From a virus (taxonomy: Duplodnaviria > Heunggongvirae > Uroviricota > Caudoviricetes), in IMG/VR virus record IMGVR_UViG_3300014721_000007, positions 1-7,648 of that record: a stretch of DNA of 7,648 nt. One strand, written 5' to 3'. Below are positions 12-7,589 of the stretch, in pieces. A program made the translations under genes and the position numbers. Numbering within the stretch: the stretch's first letter is position 1; each line of letters begins with the position of its first letter. Below the pieces are notes generated by a model, which was not told the DNA's origin, searched no databases, and saw only the letters and a program-made list of their open reading frames with translations.

Positions 12-827
12 TCAATGAACGGTATCGAGCAGCTTTAACAGCTCAGGGAATCGGGATTCGAAGAAATGCGGCTGCGTCTCGCGCGGATTTGCAGGACTGG
101 TGATGTTCTTGCCGAACATGCAGCCTTTCGCGGTCAGCGACCAGAATTTTTTGATGTTGTTAATCGCGGTACGACTGTATCGTTCGCGTTGTTCAACGAT
201 CCCCAGCTTCGCCATCTGGTGATATGCCTGATTAGCCGTCAGGCGGATACCATACTGCTTCAGCAGTGCACTCAGCGACAGCGTAGGGCGGCTTGAACCA
301 TCTGGCGCATCAGCAGGTGCATCAATGGCATAGATCGGCATAAGTTCAGGAAGACCAGCTACCTTTGATAATTTCTGGTATGCACCAAGTTTCGAGGAGT
401 TTGACAGATTTAGAGTCTTTGCTGCTGATTCAAGCAGAATGACCCCGGATTTAATTTTGTCGGATGTGGTTTCTTCTGGTGATGAATTATGAAGCGCATC
501 AAAAGTACGTATCACTTTTAAGCTGAATGCCGGGCTGATCCACATTGCATATGCATAGACCAGCTCTTTACAGACATACGTCCCACCATTGCGCCCCTGA
601 ATGGTGATGACAGGAATACTACGGGAATCTCCCGTAGTTTCTTCTTCCAATAATTCCACAAGAGCCTTCGTTTCAGGACGACGCATAAACTCGTGAACTT
701 CCAGCGAACGGGAGGAGCGATTCTCACCAGCGGCAAGAAGAGCAGCTTTCTGAAGGTCGTTAAGACAGTAGTTAGATTCGAAGTACTGGCGCACAGAAAC
801 GCCATCAATTACAAGCAACTGATTCAT
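12..827 (-). CDS. KilA-N domain protein with KilAC-like C-terminal region (antirepressor-like)
   Basis: N-terminal region ends in GTYVCKELVYAYAMWISPAFSLKVIRTFD, which fits the KilA-N signature (GTWVH..LA...A.WISP.F). C-terminal segment TLSLSALLKQYGIRLTANQAYHQMAKLGIV resembles the KilAC antirepressor domain. The track ORF starts at a GTG at 839; the in-frame ATG at 827 has a GGAG Shine-Dalgarno about 8 nt upstream and is preferred. Stop codon is at 12-14. Confidence 0.75.
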   Translation of the reverse strand: MNQLLVIDGVSVRQYFESNYCLNDLQKAALLAAGENRSSRSLEVHEFMRRPETKALVELLEEETTGDSRSIPVITIQGRNGGTYVCKELVYAYAMWISPAFSLKVIRTFDALHNSSPEETTSDKIKSGVILLESAAKTLNLSNSSKLGAYQKLSKVAGLPELMPIYAIDAPADAPDGSSRPTLSLSALLKQYGIRLTANQAYHQMAKLGIVEQRERYSRTAINNIKKFWSLTAKGCMFGKNITSPANPRETQPHFFESRFPELLKLLDTVH

Positions 828-926
828 TGGTTTCTCCACAAATTTTTATCCACGAGCGGGACTGCACTCCCTTTTCGTTGATGCAGGATGAACTTACTGC
901 GATTTTTAATAGTTATCAAGGATACA

Positions 927-942
927 CTGTTCATAAATACAG
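927..942. promoter_or_regulatory. SOS box (LexA operator) CTGTTCATAAATACAG in the intergenic region upstream of the KilA-N gene
   Basis: Perfect CTGT-N8-ACAG with an AT-rich spacer and flanking A/T (aCTGTTCATAAATACAGt). It is the only perfect CTGT-N8-ACAG found by eye in the window. It sits immediately upstream of a candidate minus-strand promoter (-35 TTGATA at + coordinates 914-919, 17-bp spacer, -10 TAAGTT at 891-896). Confidence 0.6.
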
Positions 943-989
943 TATCTTTAACGAGGTAATACCCAAATTTAGGGTGTTGCTCAATTCCG

Positions 990-1386
990 TTACCGAGTTG
1001 CTAATTTGCAACTCGCTTTTTCGTACTTACTGATAGTGATCTCGACCTTCCCCTCCGGGATAACCGGTCCCCACTCCACCAGCATTCTTTTCACCTGACT
1101 GTCGTCTTCCCACACACCCGCGTGGGTCAGGACGTCAAACAGCGCCTTGTTATAGTTGTCCAAGATCGCGGATCCGGTTATCCGGAGGAAACAACACGAT
1201 CTCCACTGATGCAGGTGCCGACGTTGGTTTTGGCAGACGACGTAACTGCTCAACTATTGCTGCACACGCCGCGCTCTGGAATTTCCGCCCCGCCGCGCTT
1301 ATCAGGCTCTTACCAGCAAACGCCCCTTTGTTGGGGTGTCGCCAGTACGTGTTCACGCTGGGCGGAAAAGGCAGGATCAGCTTCAT
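990..1386 (-). pseudogene. rusA: RusA-family Holliday junction resolvase split by a 1-nt frameshift
   Basis: ORF 1150..1386 encodes the RusA N-terminus (LPFPPSVNTYWRH, PPDNRIRDL) and ORF 990..1253, in a different frame, encodes the C-terminus (LDNYNKALFDVLTHAGVWEDDSQV). Removing one C from the CC at + 1160-1161 restores a continuous RDLDNYNK reading frame of about 128 aa. The start ATG at 1386 overlaps the upstream stop (ATGA). Confidence 0.6.
994..1021 (+). terminator. Intrinsic terminator-like hairpin oriented for + strand transcripts
   Basis: Perfect 8-bp inverted repeat CGAGTTGC (994-1001) / GCAACTCG (1008-1015) with a 6-nt loop TAATTT, followed by CTTTTT (1016-1021). On the - strand the stem is not followed by a U tract, so it is unidirectional. 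It overlaps the last codons of the rusA reading frame. Confidence 0.5.
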
Positions 1387-1709
1387 ACTTTCAGGCCTCT
1401 CTCATGTAACCAATGGGCTGCACGCAGCCTGGCGTTTTCCTCACCGGCAAGCAGTGATCGGATAATCCCGACCGCCTCGCTGTCGTCGTCCTTCACCACG
1501 GTATGAAGCGTGATCCCCCGGGCCACACCACGCTTTATCGTGATGACGCCTTTTTTCTCCAGTGCGCGAAGATGCTCCACCGCTGCATTCACTGAACGGT
1601 ATCCCAGCATGGTTGCCACCTCCTGATTGGTTGGCGGGAAGCCACGTTCTTTCTGATAAGAAATCAGCATATCCAGCACCTGCTGCTGGCATTGAGTTAA
1701 CGTCGTCAT
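1383..1709 (-). CDS. LexA N-terminal DNA-binding domain homolog lacking the S24 peptidase domain
   Basis: 108 aa. QQQVLDMLISYQKERGFPPTNQEVATMLGYRSVNAAVEHLRALEKKGVI..ARGITL parallels E. coli LexA residues about 1-70 (recognition helix NAAEEHL). An acidic stretch and VGIIRSLLAGEE align with the LexA hinge and cleavage-site region (VGRVAAGEP). There is no Ser/Lys catalytic domain. ATGA overlaps at both ends (1706-1709 and 1383-1386). Confidence 0.7.
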   Translation of the reverse strand: MTTLTQCQQQVLDMLISYQKERGFPPTNQEVATMLGYRSVNAAVEHLRALEKKGVITIKRGVARGITLHTVVKDDDSEAVGIIRSLLAGEENARLRAAHWLHERGLKV

Positions 1710-2853: not shown

Positions 2854-3680
2854 CCCCTGAATCCTGCCGGGATCTGGCTGTAGTCCACGTTGTCGTAACT
2901 GGCTTTGAAGTACGGGTCCTCGCGTCTGGCTGCAGATACCGCAGGAACTTCCCAGGATTCTTCGAAATGACGATCCGGACCAAAGAACGTGACAGCCTGT
3001 TTCACAAATTGTGTGCCGCTGTTACCCATCGCAGATACCCAGCCCGCGTAGCGTTTCACACCTTCCAGCATGGTTTCGGGGTTTACCCCCTCATTCAAAC
3101 GGGCTTTCCAGGCTTTGAAGGCTGCAGATTTTGAATTGCCACCAGCACGTTTGGGATAGGCCAGCCATGCCTGCTCAAACTCCGGAGAGTATTCCGGTCG
3201 GTTTGAACGAACTCGCACAGACTCATCAGCAGATGCACCAACAGCTATTGGTTCATTGACTGGTTCTTTGACTGGTTCTTTGACTGGTTCAAAAGAGTGA
3301 CTGGTTCTGGGTGAATCTCCTGCACTACCCCCTGGTGCAACTCCTGCACTACCTGGTGAATTTGCTGCACCAGATAGTGAATTATTTGCACTACCCCCTA
3401 GTGAATCTCCTGCACCATCAAGATGAAGGAGATAGATATTACTTGAGTTACCTTTTTCACCTTTCCGGGTGACTTTTTTTACCAGCCCGGACTCACAAAG
3501 GGCCGCAATATGATTCATCACAGAACGTTTGCTAATCTCGCACTGGTCAGCAATATGCTGGTAGCTGGGCCAGCACTCACCCTGATCGCTGGCATTATCA
3601 GCCAGCTTGATCAGAACCAGTTTTCGCAATGGATTACCCACTCGAATTTTCATCGCTTTAACCATCAGCTCCATACTCAT
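2850..3680 (-). CDS. Replication initiator, lambda-O-like architecture (N-terminal HTH domain, repeat-encoded low-complexity linker, C-terminal domain)
   Basis: 276 aa. N-terminal winged-HTH-like region (LVLIKLADNASDQGECWPSYQHIADQCEISKRSVMNHIAALCESGLVKK), a Gly/Ser/Ala/Pro-rich linker, EPVKEPVKEPVNEP, then a C-terminal domain. The linker is encoded by DNA direct repeats, as in lambda where ori lies inside O. ATGA overlap at 3677-3680. Confidence 0.7.
   Translation of the reverse strand: MSMELMVKAMKIRVGNPLRKLVLIKLADNASDQGECWPSYQHIADQCEISKRSVMNHIAALCESGLVKKVTRKGEKGNSSNIYLLHLDGAGDSLGGSANNSLSGAANSPGSAGVAPGGSAGDSPRTSHSFEPVKEPVKEPVNEPIAVGASADESVRVRSNRPEYSPEFEQAWLAYPKRAGGNSKSAAFKAWKARLNEGVNPETMLEGVKRYAGWVSAMGNSGTQFVKQAVTFFGPDRHFEESWEVPAVSAARREDPYFKASYDNVDYSQIPAGFRG
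3256..3307. repeat. Tandem 12-bp direct repeats TTTGACTGGTTC (3 units plus a fourth degenerate copy)
   Basis: GACTGGTTC recurs at about 3258, 3270, 3282 and 3299; the first three are at a 12-bp period. They encode the EPVK repeats of the O-like protein. Confidence 0.85.
3311..3421. repeat. Five imperfect 21-24-bp iteron-like direct repeats (candidate origin iterons) with an adjacent AT-rich stretch at 3421-3480
   Basis: Units begin at 3311, 3335, 3356, 3377 and 3401, each starting GTGAA(T)/GTGCAA and containing TGCAC(T/C). GTGAATCTCCTGCAC is exact at both 3311 and 3401; CTCCTGCACTACC is exact at 3317 and 3341. Confidence 0.6.
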
Positions 3681-3901: not shown

Positions 3902-5046
3902 TTGCGCCCCCTTACCTCTGAAGAGTTCAGCGACGAATGAATAAGACGGGCAAGAAATGCCGCATCGTTAATTCGGTCATACAGACTTACAGCCAGAGGT
4001 GATTCAGCTTTTTCCAGCATGGGATAAAGCTGCTGCAACCAGACCTGATGAATTGATGAAATGTAGGAATAGAGAACGCTGGCGTTATGTGCAACGTCGC
4101 TCGGTACAGCGGGCTTTGAAAGCTGTTTCTCCATCTGGTTAAAGGCATTGATGTATGCCTCTTTGAACTGGGCAGCACGTTTACCCGTGAAACCCATAGC
4201 AAGAAACGCAAAGCCATCGCGGGTTATTTGATAGCAAGGTAGTTTGCGGCCTGAAGCGTCGGTATAACCACTTAACACAAAATTGTGTTCAGCAAATTCA
4301 GCGGAGCATTCAAGGTTTCGAATTCTATCTAAAACCCGCTCGTGCCGTTTAGTAAAGTAGTTAGCAACTGCAAGAGATGTAGTGACAGCACGACCATTGA
4401 TGATCGTGATTTCAGGGTGAACAAAGGTTGGGATCGTAGCCATAATGGCAGCCTCGGTAGCAAGCTTAAAAAACTCACCACATAAGACGCCAATCATAGA
4501 GGTGGTGAGACGTACAGAGTTGGCGTTACCGGCGGCTACCCTTACCGGCGCATCTTGCGATGCCCCTGTACGCCCCACCATAATTTGGGCGTGACAAAAT
4601 AATGCGTACAAAAAAACCGCATCTACGCGGTTGTACGCGGTAGCCTTCTCCAGGACGCCAATCCCGGCACCCGCTTTATAAGGTGCCTGAACAGTGTAAC
4701 GTCCCGGAATGGCAGAATCAATGTGCTGGTGGTCCTTCACACTCAACAAAATCACGCCTGAATTTCCACAAAGGACTAAAGCACTCATGCGGGTAGTCTT
4801 TGCGAAGATAGATAACGCGCTGTGTTTCTGGCTCCCAACGAATAACATGGACATAAAGCCCTCTTCCGTCACGAAACCAGCGGTTAAGTTCCTGCACAAC
4901 TCGCCCCCCACAGTCAGGTAAAGTTCTCTGTGGTTACTTACAGCCAGGTGATTTGGTAATCTGCATTCATGCCGTAACAACAGGTGTTCAGCGACGCTGA
5001 CCACCAGCTGTTGCGACAAACGGTTATTTGCCGTTAAACTGTTCAT
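3898..5046 (-). CDS. Rha-family phage regulatory protein with an about 200-aa N-terminal extension of unknown function
   Basis: Residues about 205-310 (INGRAVTTSLAVANYFTKRHERVLDRIRNLECS...LPCYQITRDGFAFLAMGFTGKRAAQFKEAYINAFNQME) match the Phage_pRha domain. The start ATG at 5046 forms an ATGA overlap with the upstream stop, and the frame stays open for 382 codons. Confidence 0.7.
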   Translation of the reverse strand: MNSLTANNRLSQQLVVSVAEHLLLRHECRLPNHLAVSNHRELYLTVGGELCRNLTAGFVTEEGFMSMLFVGSQKHSALSIFAKTTRMSALVLCGNSGVILLSVKDHQHIDSAIPGRYTVQAPYKAGAGIGVLEKATAYNRVDAVFLYALFCHAQIMVGRTGASQDAPVRVAAGNANSVRLTTSMIGVLCGEFFKLATEAAIMATIPTFVHPEITIINGRAVTTSLAVANYFTKRHERVLDRIRNLECSAEFAEHNFVLSGYTDASGRKLPCYQITRDGFAFLAMGFTGKRAAQFKEAYINAFNQMEKQLSKPAVPSDVAHNASVLYSYISSIHQVWLQQLYPMLEKAESPLAVSLYDRINDAAFLARLIHSSLNSSEVRGRK

Positions 5047-5639: not shown

Positions 5640-5832
5640 TAGATTTTTCATAAAGCTCAGGTTTAAATGGCAACCGTCCGCAAGTTCTATATGCAGCTTC
5701 TGCTGCACGTCCTTTTGGAATTAACTGGCCCGGACGGTTTCGCCACTGATAAACGGCTTCAGTTGTTATGCCGAAAAAAGCAGCAACTTTCTCAATACTG
5801 CCGAAGTAGCTTTCGATATCGTCAGTTGTCAT
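5632..5832 (-). CDS. Cro-like (YdaS-type) HTH repressor
   Basis: 66 aa, divergent from the CI-like gene. Motif LA..LGVS..AVSQW-like segment (VAAFFGITTEAVYQWRNRPGQLIP). GGAGG Shine-Dalgarno 4-5 nt upstream of the ATG at 5832. Confidence 0.75.
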   Translation of the reverse strand: MTTDDIESYFGSIEKVAAFFGITTEAVYQWRNRPGQLIPKGRAAEAAYRTCGRLPFKPELYEKSNG

Positions 5833-5929
5833 ACGCCCTCCAAACTAAGTTTTATTAGATGCTAATTACAAATCTATCTTTGGTCAATAAAAACTAAGAT
5901 TACTTAGCAATTCAAGAAATGGTGCTCCT
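5833..5929. promoter_or_regulatory. Divergent cI/cro promoter-operator region (OR-like)
   Basis: 97-bp AT-rich intergenic region between divergent repressor genes. Contains the inverted repeat CTAAGATTACTTAG (5894-5907), the related CTAAGTTTTATTAG (5845-5858) and TTAGATGCTAA (5855-5865). Exact -35/-10 elements could not be fixed by eye. Confidence 0.6.
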
Positions 5930-6556
5930 ATGGAAACGGTTGGTCAGCGTATAAAAGCTCTGAGAAGAGTTACCAGAACGTCCCAGAAAGAATTGGGTAA
6001 ATTTTGTGGAGTAAGCGACGTTGCTGTGGGGTACTGGGAGAAAGACATCAATACCCCTGGTGGGGAGGCACTTTCGAAATTAGCGAAGTTCTTCAATACG
6101 TCAATAGATTACATTCTTTATGGTGCTGAGTTTGAAGGCAAACTCGTCACAAACATGCGCAGAGTTCCTGTAATATCGTGGGTTCAGGCTGGGCAGTTTA
6201 CTGAGTGCAGGGCAGCAGAAGTGTTTAGTGAAGTGGACAAGTGGGTAGATACATCATTAAAGATTGGTGATAACTCATTTGCATTAGAGGTTAAAGGTGA
6301 CTCCATGACTAACCCTAATGGCCTCCCAACAATACCAGAAGGCGCAACAGTGATTGTAGATCCAGATGCAGAACCTCGTCATGGAAAAATAGTAATCGCT
6401 CGACTTGATGGAACAAACGAAGCTACAGTAAAAAAATTAGTCATCGATGGCCCTCAAAAGTTTTTAGTGCCATTAAATCCTCGGTATCCCAACATCCCTA
6501 TCAATGGTAATTGCCTTATCATTGGTGTAGTCAAAGGAGTTCAATACGAACTCTAA
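5930..6556 (+). CDS. CI-like phage repressor (HTH_XRE N-terminal domain plus S24 LexA-type autopeptidase domain)
   Basis: 208 aa. N-terminal HTH (QKELGKFCGVSDVAVGYWEKD), Ala-Gly cleavage motif (VQAGQF), S24 catalytic serine in GDSMTNP and lysine in VKKLV. Confidence 0.9.
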   Translation: METVGQRIKALRRVTRTSQKELGKFCGVSDVAVGYWEKDINTPGGEALSKLAKFFNTSIDYILYGAEFEGKLVTNMRRVPVISWVQAGQFTECRAAEVFSEVDKWVDTSLKIGDNSFALEVKGDSMTNPNGLPTIPEGATVIVDPDAEPRHGKIVIARLDGTNEATVKKLVIDGPQKFLVPLNPRYPNIPINGNCLIIGVVKGVQYEL

Positions 6557-7201: not shown

Positions 7202-7454
7202 TTGATTTTCCTTTTATGTATACGGGCTTAAAAGGATACCACCGAGCCTGAAGTGGTGAAAAGACAGGCACATAACAGCTAAGTATTTTCAACCAAAGAG
7301 AATCCTTAGCGTTGTGGTGAATGCGGCTCAGCGCACGCGGGTTAAGGTTGAGGCTGACAGTCGACCTTCTGTGGATACCCACCCGTCTGGTGTGCAACCT
7401 TCGCCAGGCACCGGGAGGCACCCGGCACCACAACTTTATGCTGTGTGTAGTCCT

Positions 7455-7501
7455 GGCGGTACCAGTTTGTACCCTTGCTTCCGGCTGGTACCGTCCTTTT
7501 T
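7455..7501 (+). terminator. Terminator-like hairpin on the + strand
   Basis: Stem 7455-7465 pairs with 7485-7495 (core GGTACCAG / CTGGTACC, 11 bp including one G-U), 19-nt loop, followed by CTTTTT (7496-7501). No U tract on the - strand. Confidence 0.4.
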
Positions 7502-7502
7502 A

Positions 7503-7589
7503 CAAAACAGAGAAGAGCATCACCGGACGACGGGCTCATAACCCAATCCATCCGGGCGGCTGCCACCGCAGGTGTTCTTCTCTGTTTTG
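7503..7589. repeat. 14-bp perfect inverted repeat CAAAACAGAGAAGA / TCTTCTCTGTTTTG enclosing a 59-nt G+C-rich segment
   Basis: Arms at 7503-7516 and 7576-7589 are exact reverse complements. The stem is extensible by about 4 more pairs with G-U pairing in RNA. No credible ORF covers it. Confidence 0.85.

What the first reader, a model, noticed from the sequence alone, without database searches (positions are those of the whole stretch)
840..1030. Perfect SOS box directly upstream of a KilA-N/KilAC antirepressor-like gene
CTGTTCATAAATACAG (927-942) is a textbook LexA operator core (CTGT-N8-ACAG, AT-rich spacer) and the only one in the window. It abuts a plausible minus-strand promoter (TTGATA-N17-TAAGTT) for the KilA-N/KilAC gene. 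LexA-controlled antirepressors are the induction switch in coliphage 186 (tum) and Salmonella Gifsy prophages. Here the prophage also carries a cleavable CI-like repressor, so it may have two SOS inputs or the KilA-N protein may act on a different target.
Basis: partly seen in the sequence, partly recalled or inferred. Interest (0 to 1): 0.7.

Follow-up and report, generated by a model that had tools for sequence, protein, structure and literature searches.

The report
SOS box before prophage kilA-N–Q genes
A strong binding site for the bacterial DNA-damage repressor LexA sits next to a small conserved promoter inside a lambda-like prophage, just ahead of a DNA-binding (KilA-N) gene and, in near-identical relatives, the late-gene switch Q, so DNA damage probably turns these genes on directly; nothing supports calling the KilA-N protein an antirepressor.

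Summary
CACTGTTCATAAATACAGTA (925-944) scores 21.4 bits on a LexA matrix, mid-range for proven E. coli operators. No shuffle of the window reaches that score. It is the only site of at least 10 bits in a complete 45-kb relative. The proposed minus-strand promoter (TTGATA 919-914, 17 nt, TAAGTT 896-891) is weak by consensus. However, T1/A2/T6 of the -10 are invariant, and TTGA of the -35 and the spacing are largely kept, across ten lineages. LexA-like palindromes recur upstream of homologues in several genera (13/49 loci against 3/1762 control windows). In Erwinia and Aeromonas they overlap the core promoter.

Pfam finds KilA-N but no KilAC/ANT domain. In most relatives the gene follows rusA by 16-21 nt with no promoter, so it is a delayed-early gene. 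The repressor CI is a cleavable S24 type. A separate Rha-type antirepressor gene preceded by matches to the C4 and isrK RNA families lies elsewhere in the window.

My best reading is a LexA-repressed auxiliary promoter for a conserved kilA-N–DUF968–Q unit, a second SOS input. The box lies upstream of the -35 (centre about -50), which is atypical. Nothing here has been shown experimentally. Verdict: new variant of a known kind, moderate interest.

The parts
925..944 (.). LexA (SOS) box, 20-mer CACTGTTCATAAATACAGTA; the 16-nt core is at 927-942
   Evidence: Searches give the sequence; 21.4 bits, HI about 5.9, 0/300 shuffles reach it; the core is invariant in six E. coli/Shigella variants of the spacer; it is the only site of at least 10 bits in the whole 45-kb phage PhiR49_1.
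914..919 (-). Putative -35 hexamer TTGATA of the kilA-N promoter
   Evidence: In alignment A4, T and G of TTGA are at least 90% conserved, and my reading of the alignment is that seven of ten lineages keep a 17-nt spacer.
891..896 (-). Putative -10 hexamer TAAGTT; predicted transcription start near 884
   Evidence: In A4 positions 1, 2 and 6 of the hexamer (T, A, T) are invariant while the middle three vary. The start site is inferred, not measured.
852..878 (-). Leader hairpin ACGAAAAGGGA-GUGCAG-UCCCGCUCGU with a conserved (N)UGCAG loop
   Evidence: One search gives the fold; across 22 lineages the 5-bp stem is 75.5% paired, has 31 two-sided changes, and has a covariation score of 0.626 against 0.251, with 0/500 shuffles reaching it; it is also present in relatives without the spacer.
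834..837 (-). Shine-Dalgarno GGAG, 6 nt before the ATG at 827-825
   Evidence: GTGGAG is invariant in A4.
12..827 (-). kilA-N gene (271 aa): an N-terminal KilA-N domain plus a C-terminal domain with no assigned family
   Evidence: One search gives the RefSeq annotation of a 99.7% identical locus; phrog_129. Searches give the structure model and fold searches.
990..1386 (-). rusA, the upstream neighbour; it is frameshifted in the window by an extra A near 1162
994..1015 (+). Stable hairpin in the 3' end of rusA. It looks like a terminator only on the + strand
   Evidence: -20.7 kcal/mol for the 81-nt stretch 945-1025 that contains it, z -2.66.
1383..1709 (-). Phage protein (108 aa) consisting of a LexA DNA-binding domain plus a short tail, with no S24 cleavage domain; a possible second binder of the box
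   Evidence: LexA_DNA_bind, E 2.9e-19. TIGR00498 positions 1-91 only. One search shows the recognition-helix alignment. One search shows the linkage.
5930..6556 (+). CI repressor with HTH_3 and Peptidase_S24; this is the classical RecA-dependent SOS input

Best explanation
The 162-nt spacer between rusA and kilA-N is a small operator-promoter cassette inserted into the distal part of the prophage's early-right (PR) operon. In the lysogen, host LexA binds the box at 925-944, directly upstream of the -35 of a weak sigma-70 promoter (TTGATA-17-TAAGTT, start near 884). There it keeps the promoter off, most likely by blocking the upstream (UP-element/alpha-CTD and sigma region 4) contacts. DNA damage makes LexA cleave itself, and the promoter then transcribes kilA-N. 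Because no gap or convincing terminator follows, transcription also reaches the tightly packed downstream genes DUF968/HNH and the antiterminator Q. This would be an SOS input that acts in parallel with RecA-mediated cleavage of CI and does not depend on PR or N. The KilA-N protein is a two-domain DNA-binding protein that belongs to the lytic programme. Its target is unknown, and nothing indicates that it inactivates the repressor. What is shown: the site and its score, the conservation pattern of the promoter, the recurrence of LexA-type boxes before homologues, and the gene order. What is inferred: LexA occupancy, repression from this position, the start site, read-through into Q, and the protein's role.
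For: One search shows the box core is invariant in all E. coli/Shigella spacer variants, while the flank varies and an 11-nt indel rules out a coding role for the spacer. One search shows the conservation signature of a real promoter across ten lineages: T, A and T at positions 1, 2 and 6 of the -10 are invariant while the middle three vary. T and G of the -35 TTGA are at least 90% conserved, and my reading of the alignment is that seven lineages keep the 17-nt spacing. The palindrome sits 4-5 nt upstream of the -35 in most of them. LexA-like sites of at least 14 bits lie 20-170 nt upstream of the start codon in 13 of 49 non-identical homologous loci, against 3 of 1762 control windows. Those three controls are one conserved stretch inside a methylase coding sequence. 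In other lineages the box overlaps the core promoter. In Erwinia it overlaps the -10 of TTGCCA-17-TATATT, which matches 10/12. In four Aeromonas species, TTGATG/TTGTTG-[box]-TATCTT/TAATAT precedes a Bro-N protein with the same C-terminal domain. The kilA-N–DUF968–Q order with short gaps holds across Enterobacterales, and no convincing minus-strand terminator lies between kilA-N and Q. An analogous LexA-controlled locus lies 1.3 kb downstream of the replication genes in Gifsy prophages (PMC3121763). The CI operators (CTAAG-N4-CTTAG) differ from the box, so the box is not a CI/Cro site.
Against: The 20-mer spans about -60 to -41 relative to the inferred start. This is atypical: in a Salmonella survey (PMC8072944), LexA boxes of tightly LexA-dependent genes overlap the transcription start, and to my knowledge most E. 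coli operators overlap the core promoter. The promoter matches only 8/12 and is not called by the scanner. Many related boxes have a degenerate half-site (GTGGAT instead of CTGTAT) and score only 6-16 bits, so LexA control may be weak or lost in them. The E. coli copies are nearly identical, so their conservation says little. The matrix was built from operator sequences recalled from memory. I found no experimental data (binding, start site or induction) for this locus.
Confidence: 0.55

Rival explanations
1. The KilA-N protein is a LexA-controlled antirepressor that inactivates this prophage's CI, or the repressor of a co-resident prophage, as Tum does in phage 186 and GfoA/GfhA do in Gifsy prophages.
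For: There is a strong LexA box ahead of the gene. LexA-controlled antirepressors outside the immunity region are established (PMC3121763). The C-terminal domain also occurs fused to Bro-N and Rha N-terminal domains, and some distant relatives are annotated 'antirepressor'. Trans-acting antirepressors that target other prophages are known.
Against: No ANT/KilAC, Tum, or other antirepressor family is detected. Fold searches give only KilA-N and winged-helix DNA-binding folds, and only at weak scores. Most relatives have no promoter or box and place the gene 16-21 nt after rusA, deep in the PR operon, where it is expressed only after the repressor is already inactive. CI is a self-cleaving S24 repressor. 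The gene is fixed in a kilA-N–DUF968–Q triad, which suggests a lytic-cycle role. The Gifsy antirepressors are described as small proteins and Tum is 146 aa; this protein is 271 aa and Pfam assigns it only a KilA-N domain.
Confidence: 0.12
2. LexA binds the box but does not control the adjacent promoter. The site is either a neutral 'permissive' binding site, or it acts as a protein roadblock that stops leaky upstream transcription from reaching Q in the lysogen.
For: The box lies upstream of the -35, not over the core promoter. No sense-strand intrinsic terminator separates rusA from kilA-N, so some barrier in front of Q would be useful. Many orthologous boxes are degenerate.
Against: The palindrome keeps a fixed position 4-5 nt from a conserved -35 in most of the ten aligned lineages. 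In Erwinia and Aeromonas the box overlaps the core promoter, which is the classical repression geometry. Enrichment upstream of homologues is very strong.
Confidence: 0.15
3. The palindrome is mainly the operator of the phage's own LexA-DNA-binding-domain protein (108 aa, 1383-1709), which is made from PR during lytic growth. Host LexA is at most a secondary binder.
For: The protein is a full LexA DNA-binding domain with no cleavage domain. It keeps the LexA recognition-helix pattern S-x-N-A-A-x-E-H-L and the RGI wing. Its gene lies two genes upstream of the box and is linked to kilA-N in many genera. Related boxes often have GTGGAT half-sites that are poor for LexA. There is a loose tendency for those to occur with variants that lack Glu45 (8 lineages, not independent).
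Against: The same protein (96-99% identical) is present in phages that have no box (Stx2a_1447 and the Stx2c types). Boxes occur in Pantoea, Rosenbergiella, Serratia, Erwinia and Aeromonas loci where no such gene is found within 2.5 kb. The protein would not be made in a lysogen, so it cannot keep the promoter silent there. The window's box is a near-consensus host LexA site.
Confidence: 0.1
4. A chance palindrome with no function.
For: One or two CTGT-N8-ACAG cores are expected by chance in 7.6 kb when one mismatch is allowed.
Against: Its score of 21.4 bits is not reached in 300 shuffles. It is the only site of at least 10 bits in 45 kb. Related palindromes recur at the same place in other genera.
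Confidence: 0.02

Closest known systems
Gifsy-1/-2/-3 SOS locus (LexA box – dinI – gfoA/gftA/gfhA – irsA) of Salmonella prophages (Lemire et al. 2011, PMC3121763)
   Same: A LexA box with its own promoter is embedded in a lambdoid prophage downstream of the replication genes, outside the immunity region. It wires part of the prophage directly to LexA cleavage.
   Different: The Gifsy cargo is a DinI homologue plus a small antirepressor, and the Gifsy repressors are not cleaved. Here the cargo is a 271-aa KilA-N protein followed by DUF968/HNH and Q, and CI is an S24 self-cleaving repressor. In Gifsy the box is preceded by terminator-like palindromes; here no sense-strand terminator precedes it.
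Coliphage 186 Tum, N15 AntC, and the Ant of the P22-like phage SPC32H (LexA-repressed antirepressor genes)
   Same: A prophage gene is repressed by host LexA and released by DNA damage. Tum and AntC are cited in PMC3121763; SPC32H is from my own knowledge.
   Different: Those proteins are shown to inactivate the phage repressor. No detectable homology or domain is shared with them, and the repressor here does not need an antirepressor.
Canonical E. coli SOS operators (recA, sulA, umuDC, dinI and others)
   Same: The CTGT-N8-ACAG palindrome with an AT-rich spacer is the same. The score and heterology index fall within the range of proven operators.
   Different: The position differs. The box is centred near -50, just upstream of the -35, and does not overlap the -35/-10/+1 region.
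KilA-N domain proteins (P1 KilA; BstA abortive-infection proteins, PMC8585504)
   Same: They share the N-terminal KilA-N DNA-binding domain and are prophage-borne.
   Different: BstA sits next to cI and is expressed in lysogens. PADLOC gives only a weak partial match to a candidate-defence family, PDC-S22, over the KilA-N domain. The C-terminal domain here has no Pfam family and is shared with Bro-N and Rha fusions.
Lambda delayed-early nin–Q region
   Same: The location between rusA (a nin-type gene) and Q on the PR transcript is the same, and most relatives express the gene only from PR.
   Different: Lambda has no internal SOS-controlled promoter in front of Q. That promoter is the new element in this subset of phages.

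Membership tests
Gammaproteobacterial LexA (SOS) operator | CTGT-N8-ACAG palindrome with an AT-rich spacer | tested here: met
   Exact core at 927-942 with spacer TCATAAAT.
Gammaproteobacterial LexA (SOS) operator | Matrix score or heterology index within the range of proven operators | tested here: met
   21.4 bits and HI about 5.9; the training sites span 12.2-26.4 bits and HI 2.3-12.2. The matrix was built from operator sequences recalled from memory.
Gammaproteobacterial LexA (SOS) operator | Overlaps or abuts a promoter so that bound LexA hinders RNA polymerase | tested here: inconclusive
   The box ends 5 nt upstream of the -35 (centre about -50.5 from the inferred start) and does not overlap the core promoter. 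In Erwinia and Aeromonas relatives it does overlap.
Gammaproteobacterial LexA (SOS) operator | LexA binding, and DNA-damage induction that depends on lexA | not testable with these tools
   This needs EMSA or footprinting, ChIP, and reporter assays. No published data were found.
LexA-controlled prophage antirepressor (Tum / GfoA / AntC type) | Sequence or domain homology to a known antirepressor (ANT/KilAC PF03374, Tum, Gifsy type) | tested here: not met
   Pfam finds only KilA-N. The C-terminal half has no family at E up to 10. NCBIfam finds nothing, and PHROG 129 is labelled 'transcriptional regulator'.
LexA-controlled prophage antirepressor (Tum / GfoA / AntC type) | The cognate repressor is not self-cleaving and needs an antirepressor for induction | tested here: not met
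   CI (5930-6556) has Peptidase_S24 (E 9e-28) with an Ala-Gly site and Ser/Lys motifs.
LexA-controlled prophage antirepressor (Tum / GfoA / AntC type) | The gene is an independent SOS transcription unit, not part of the repressor-controlled early operon | tested here: not met
   Only 186 of about 2,300 E. coli genomes that match the region have the spacer. In the other relatives I examined (Stx2a_1447, Shigella flexneri, ST64B, Proteus, Morganella) the gene follows rusA by 16-21 nt with no box.
LexA-controlled prophage antirepressor (Tum / GfoA / AntC type) | The product binds and inactivates a phage repressor | not testable with these tools
   This needs genetics or biochemistry.
KilA-N domain proteins (PF04383) | Match to the KilA-N profile above the gathering threshold | tested here: met
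   57.6 bits against a cut-off of 23.8, residues 10-114. The viral fold search hits KilA-N proteins.
Sigma-70 promoter | -35 and -10 hexamers with 16-18 nt spacing close to consensus | tested here: inconclusive
   TTGATA matches 5/6, TAAGTT matches 3/6 but with T1, A2 and T6, and the spacing is 17 nt. This is below the scanner's threshold. The key positions are conserved in ten lineages.

The most novel reading that the evidence does not exclude
The box is a dual-use operator at the head of a kilA-N–DUF968–Q transcription unit. In the lysogen, host LexA silences an internal promoter, so DNA damage feeds the late-gene antiterminator Q directly and bypasses CI cleavage and N. Once the phage is induced, its own uncleavable LexA-DNA-binding-domain protein (1383-1709) re-occupies this box and the host's SOS boxes. 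That would shut the auxiliary promoter and the host SOS regulon during lytic growth. The conserved UGCAG-loop hairpin in the leader would add a further, still unknown layer of control over the same unit.
Probability: 0.12. Interest if true: 0.8.

Novelty: new variant of a known kind. Interest (0 to 1): 0.5.

Why it matters
LexA-controlled prophage loci are known, but they carry antirepressors for repressors that cannot cleave themselves. Here a strong LexA operator sits in a phage that already has a cleavable CI, in front of a unit that ends with the late-gene antiterminator Q. If it works as proposed, DNA damage would reach late-gene expression by a route that does not need CI cleavage, PR or N. 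That could change the timing and threshold of lysis. The cassette is present in 186 of 5,426 complete E. coli genomes, including O104:H4 C227-11, O55:H7 CB9615, O103:H2, O111:H8 and O157:H7 strains, and in the Shigella serotype-converting phage SfIV. It is easily testable. The comparison also exposes two uncharacterised elements. One is a conserved kilA-N leader hairpin with a UGCAG loop. The other is a phage-encoded LexA DNA-binding domain without a cleavage domain.

Tried and rejected
1. A plus-strand (antisense) promoter using the box plus TATCTT (943-948) and ending at the plus-strand terminator-like hairpin 994-1015. I rejected it because there is no -35 (GGATAC, 0/6) and the arrangement is not conserved on that strand in relatives. 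The resemblance to the Aeromonas promoter applies to the opposite orientation.
2. Alternative sense promoters overlapping or preceding the box (TGAACA-17-TATTAA; TTGAGC-17-TATTAC). Both lack the -7 T and cannot be checked by comparison, so I did not adopt them.
3. The box as an extra CI/Cro operator. Rejected: the CI operators are CTAAG-N4-CTTAG.
4. A small ORF in the spacer (827-1033, +). Rejected: an 11-nt indel in natural variants would shift its frame.
5. A known RNA family in 840-1030. There is no Rfam match at E up to 1.
6. Homology of the protein to solved structures by sequence: none. Fold search against the PDB found nothing below E 0.26, only weak winged-helix and Mbp1-like hits.
7. 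A defence-system assignment. PADLOC gives only a partial KilA-N match, and BstA differs in location and architecture.
8. Co-variation between the phage LexA-like recognition helix and the box half-site. There are too few lineages and they are not independent, so this is only a hint.
9. Literature searches for KilA-N with LexA, SOS or mitomycin found nothing on this locus.
10. The three strong 'background' LexA-like sites in related loci lie inside, or (in L045) just upstream of, the start of a DNA-methylase-like coding sequence. They are probably coincidental.

Full report
**Setting.** The window is the early-right region of a lambdoid prophage, transcribed on the minus strand. The gene order is as follows.
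- cI (5930-6556, plus strand; HTH_3 + Peptidase_S24).
- cro (5832-5632) and a CII-like gene.
- A Rha-family gene preceded by matches to the C4 antisense RNA and isrK families.
- An O-like replication gene, then PerC-like and Dam methylase genes.
- A 108-aa protein that is only a LexA DNA-binding domain (1709-1383).
- rusA (1386-990), a 162-nt spacer, and a 271-aa KilA-N protein (827-12).

In 99.4-99.7% identical loci (E. coli ES1, phage PhiR49_1) and in SfIV (98.6%), the next genes follow with short gaps (8 and 14 nt in ES1). They are a DUF968/HNH gene and the antiterminator Q.

**Observation.** The core CTGTTCATAAATACAG is at 927-942.
This is mid-range for the training sites.
- The next best site in the window scores 6.4 bits. 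None of 300 shuffles exceeds 17.1.
- In the complete 45-kb genome of PhiR49_1 it is the only site of at least 10 bits.
A second exact core lies at 4928-4943, but it is a poor site.
- TTGATA (919-914), a 17-nt spacer and TAAGTT (896-891) are present on the minus strand. They match only 8 of 12 consensus positions, and the consensus scanner calls no promoter there.

**Is the promoter real?** Ten lineages share this type of spacer: Escherichia, Phytobacter, Atlantibacter, Kluyvera, Raoultella, Enterobacter, Superficieibacter, Kosakonia and two viral contigs. Their alignment shows what is expected of a working sigma-70 promoter.
- Positions 1, 2 and 6 of the -10 (T, A, T) are invariant, while the middle three positions vary (TAAGTT, TAATGT, TAGTGT, TAAGGT, TATGGT, TAATCT).
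- T and G of the -35 TTGA are at least 90% conserved.
- My reading of the alignment is that seven lineages keep the 17-nt spacing.
- The palindrome sits 4-5 nt upstream of the -35 in most of them.

From the -10, the start is inferred near 884, so the box spans about -60 to -41. This is atypical for LexA. In Salmonella, boxes of tightly LexA-dependent genes overlap the start site (PMC8072944). It is the main weakness of the repression model. The AT-rich centre of the box coincides with where an UP element would lie, so occlusion of upstream contacts is a reasonable mechanism, but that is inference.

**Comparative support for LexA control.** Homologues of the protein are widespread in prophages of Enterobacterales and beyond. 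Two architectures exist.
- A tight architecture, in which rusA ends 16-21 nt before the start codon and there is no box. Examples are Stx2a_1447, a Shigella flexneri chromosomal copy, ST64B, Proteus and Morganella.
- A spacer architecture of about 85-160 nt.

Among 49 non-identical loci with a defined start, 13 have a LexA-like site of at least 14 bits within 20-170 nt upstream, against 3 of 1762 control windows. The loci are related, so the Fisher p of about 4e-19 overstates independence. The three control hits are one conserved stretch at the start of a methylase-like coding sequence.

The geometry differs between lineages, which argues for repeated selection rather than simple inheritance.
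- In Erwinia the box overlaps the -10 of TTGCCA-17-TATATT, which matches 10/12.
- In four Aeromonas species a near-consensus box (20.9-22.5 bits) fills the 17-nt spacer of TTGATG/TTGTTG…TATCTT/TAATAT. The gene behind it has a Bro-N N-terminal domain but the same C-terminal domain.
- Many group-1 boxes have one good half-site and one degenerate half-site (GTGGAT), scoring 6-16 bits. LexA control is therefore probably graded, and lost in some.

Within E. coli the spacer occurs in 186 of 5,426 complete genomes, out of about 2,300 that match the region. It also occurs in SfIV and PhiR49_1. The core of the box is invariant in the variants examined, and one flank position changes to the better TACTGT, which scores 23.6 bits.

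**What the gene is.**
- Pfam detects only KilA-N. The C-terminal 150 residues match no Pfam family, even at E up to 10. NCBIfam finds nothing, and PHROG 129 is labelled 'transcriptional regulator'.
- A moderate-confidence model (pLDDT 72) shows the KilA-N fold plus a helix/beta-hairpin C-terminal domain that resembles a winged helix. Fold searches return KilA-N proteins and weak winged-helix hits.
- The C-terminal domain also occurs fused to Rha and Bro-N domains in other temperate phages. The protein therefore belongs to the modular Bro-N/KilA-N/Rha group of phage DNA-binding proteins, but it has no demonstrated function.
- Compared with the Stx2a_1447 homologue, the C-terminal 100 residues are almost identical while the KilA-N domain is divergent. 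The spacer travels with one KilA-N variant.

**Why not an antirepressor.** Five points argue against it.
- There is no antirepressor domain.
- The repressor is self-cleaving.
- In most relatives the gene has no promoter and lies deep in the PR operon. It would be made only after the repressor is already gone.
- It is locked in a kilA-N–DUF968–Q triad across Enterobacterales, which points to a lytic-cycle role.
- The window already holds a Rha-type gene preceded by matches to the C4 antisense and isrK RNA families, the usual kind of antirepressor module.

I rate this reading at about 0.12.

**Most likely mechanism.** The spacer is an operator-promoter cassette added, in a subset of phages, in front of the last delayed-early unit. 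LexA keeps it off in the lysogen. After DNA damage it transcribes kilA-N and, since no convincing sense-strand terminator follows, DUF968 and Q as well. The nearest precedent is the Gifsy LexA–dinI–antirepressor locus, which likewise lies downstream of the replication genes (PMC3121763).

Rivals are a non-regulatory or roadblock LexA site, and an operator for the phage's own LexA-domain protein. That protein keeps the LexA recognition helix. However, it also occurs in phages without the box and is absent from several loci that have one. The CI operators are unrelated to the box.

**Other elements.** The leader contains a hairpin (878-852, minus strand) whose loop always ends in UGCAG.
- It is present in both architectures. 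In the tight one it overlaps the end of rusA.
- It shows clear compensatory change across 22 lineages: 75.5% paired, 31 two-sided changes, and 0/500 shuffles reaching the observed covariation score.
- It has no Rfam match. Its role is unknown.

**Verdict.** This is a new variant of a known kind (a LexA-controlled prophage locus) with an unusual cargo and an unusual operator position. Everything about function remains inference until LexA binding, the start site and damage induction are measured.

Noticed in passing
window 852-878 (minus strand): A conserved hairpin in the kilA-N leader with an (N)UGCAG loop, just before an A-rich stretch and the GTGGAG ribosome-binding site. It is found in 22 lineages and in both gene architectures, and its stem shows compensatory changes. 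Proteus and Morganella have a hairpin with a UGUACGG or UAUACGG loop instead. There is no Rfam family, and the function is unknown.
   Followed up: yes
window 1383-1709 (minus strand): A phage-encoded 108-aa protein made of a LexA DNA-binding domain plus a short helical tail, with no S24 cleavage domain. It keeps the LexA recognition-helix pattern. It is linked to rusA and kilA-N in many genera. It could act as an uncleavable LexA mimic during lytic growth.
   Followed up: partly
window 4498-4585 and 4610-4686 (minus strand): Rfam matches above the gathering score to C4 antisense RNA (68.4 bits) and isrK (60 bits). They lie directly upstream of the Rha-family 'antirepressor' gene (about 4500-3898). 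This is a P1/P7 immI-like and Gifsy-1 isrK-like antirepressor control module.
   Followed up: no
window about 1162 (within rusA, 990-1386): An extra A (CCAAGATC against CCAGATC in a 99.7% identical relative, E. coli ES1) frameshifts rusA into two ORFs. This is either a pseudogene or a sequencing error.
   Followed up: yes
window 4928-4943: A second exact CTGT-N8-ACAG core (CTGTGGTTACTTACAG) in the region upstream of the Rha-type gene. It is a poor LexA site (6.4 bits, HI about 16.5).
   Followed up: partly
window 994-1015: A stable hairpin (CGAGTTGC-N6-GCAACTCG) inside the 3' end of rusA. It reads as an intrinsic terminator only on the plus strand (a T-run follows), and no plus-strand transcript is evident. 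The Stx2a_1447-type rusA end has a hairpin at the same place, but that one is the GUGCAG leader hairpin.
   Followed up: partly
L001 1249-3827 and L007-L063: kilA-N, DUF968/HNH and Q form a tightly packed triad conserved across Enterobacterales with at least two different Q families. In Aeromonas the Bro-N version lies 1-2 kb upstream of a DUF968 gene. This suggests a functional link between the three genes.
   Followed up: partly
L011 about 5656-5675, L025 5452-5471, L045 4961-4980: Very strong LexA-like 20-mers (22.1 bits; TACTGTAAAAATAAACAGTG in L011 and L025, a variant in L045). In L025 the site lies in the first codons of a DNA-methylase-like gene (MKNTVKINS…DPPY). It is probably a coincidence of coding sequence, but it is conserved in three genera.
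   Followed up: partly
window 5842-5909: Putative CI/Cro operators of the form CTAAG-N4-CTTAG (for example ACTAAGATTACTTAG) between cro and cI. They are unrelated to the SOS box.
   Followed up: partly
window 7289-7504 (plus strand): A sub-threshold Rfam match to the sRNA STnc100 (39.5 bits against a gathering score of 47, E 5e-6) beyond the cI side of the window.
   Followed up: no
window 3320-3414 (minus strand): Four TGCAG motifs spaced roughly 20-45 nt apart inside the O-like replication gene. They may be part of origin iterons. I did not examine them.
   Followed up: no
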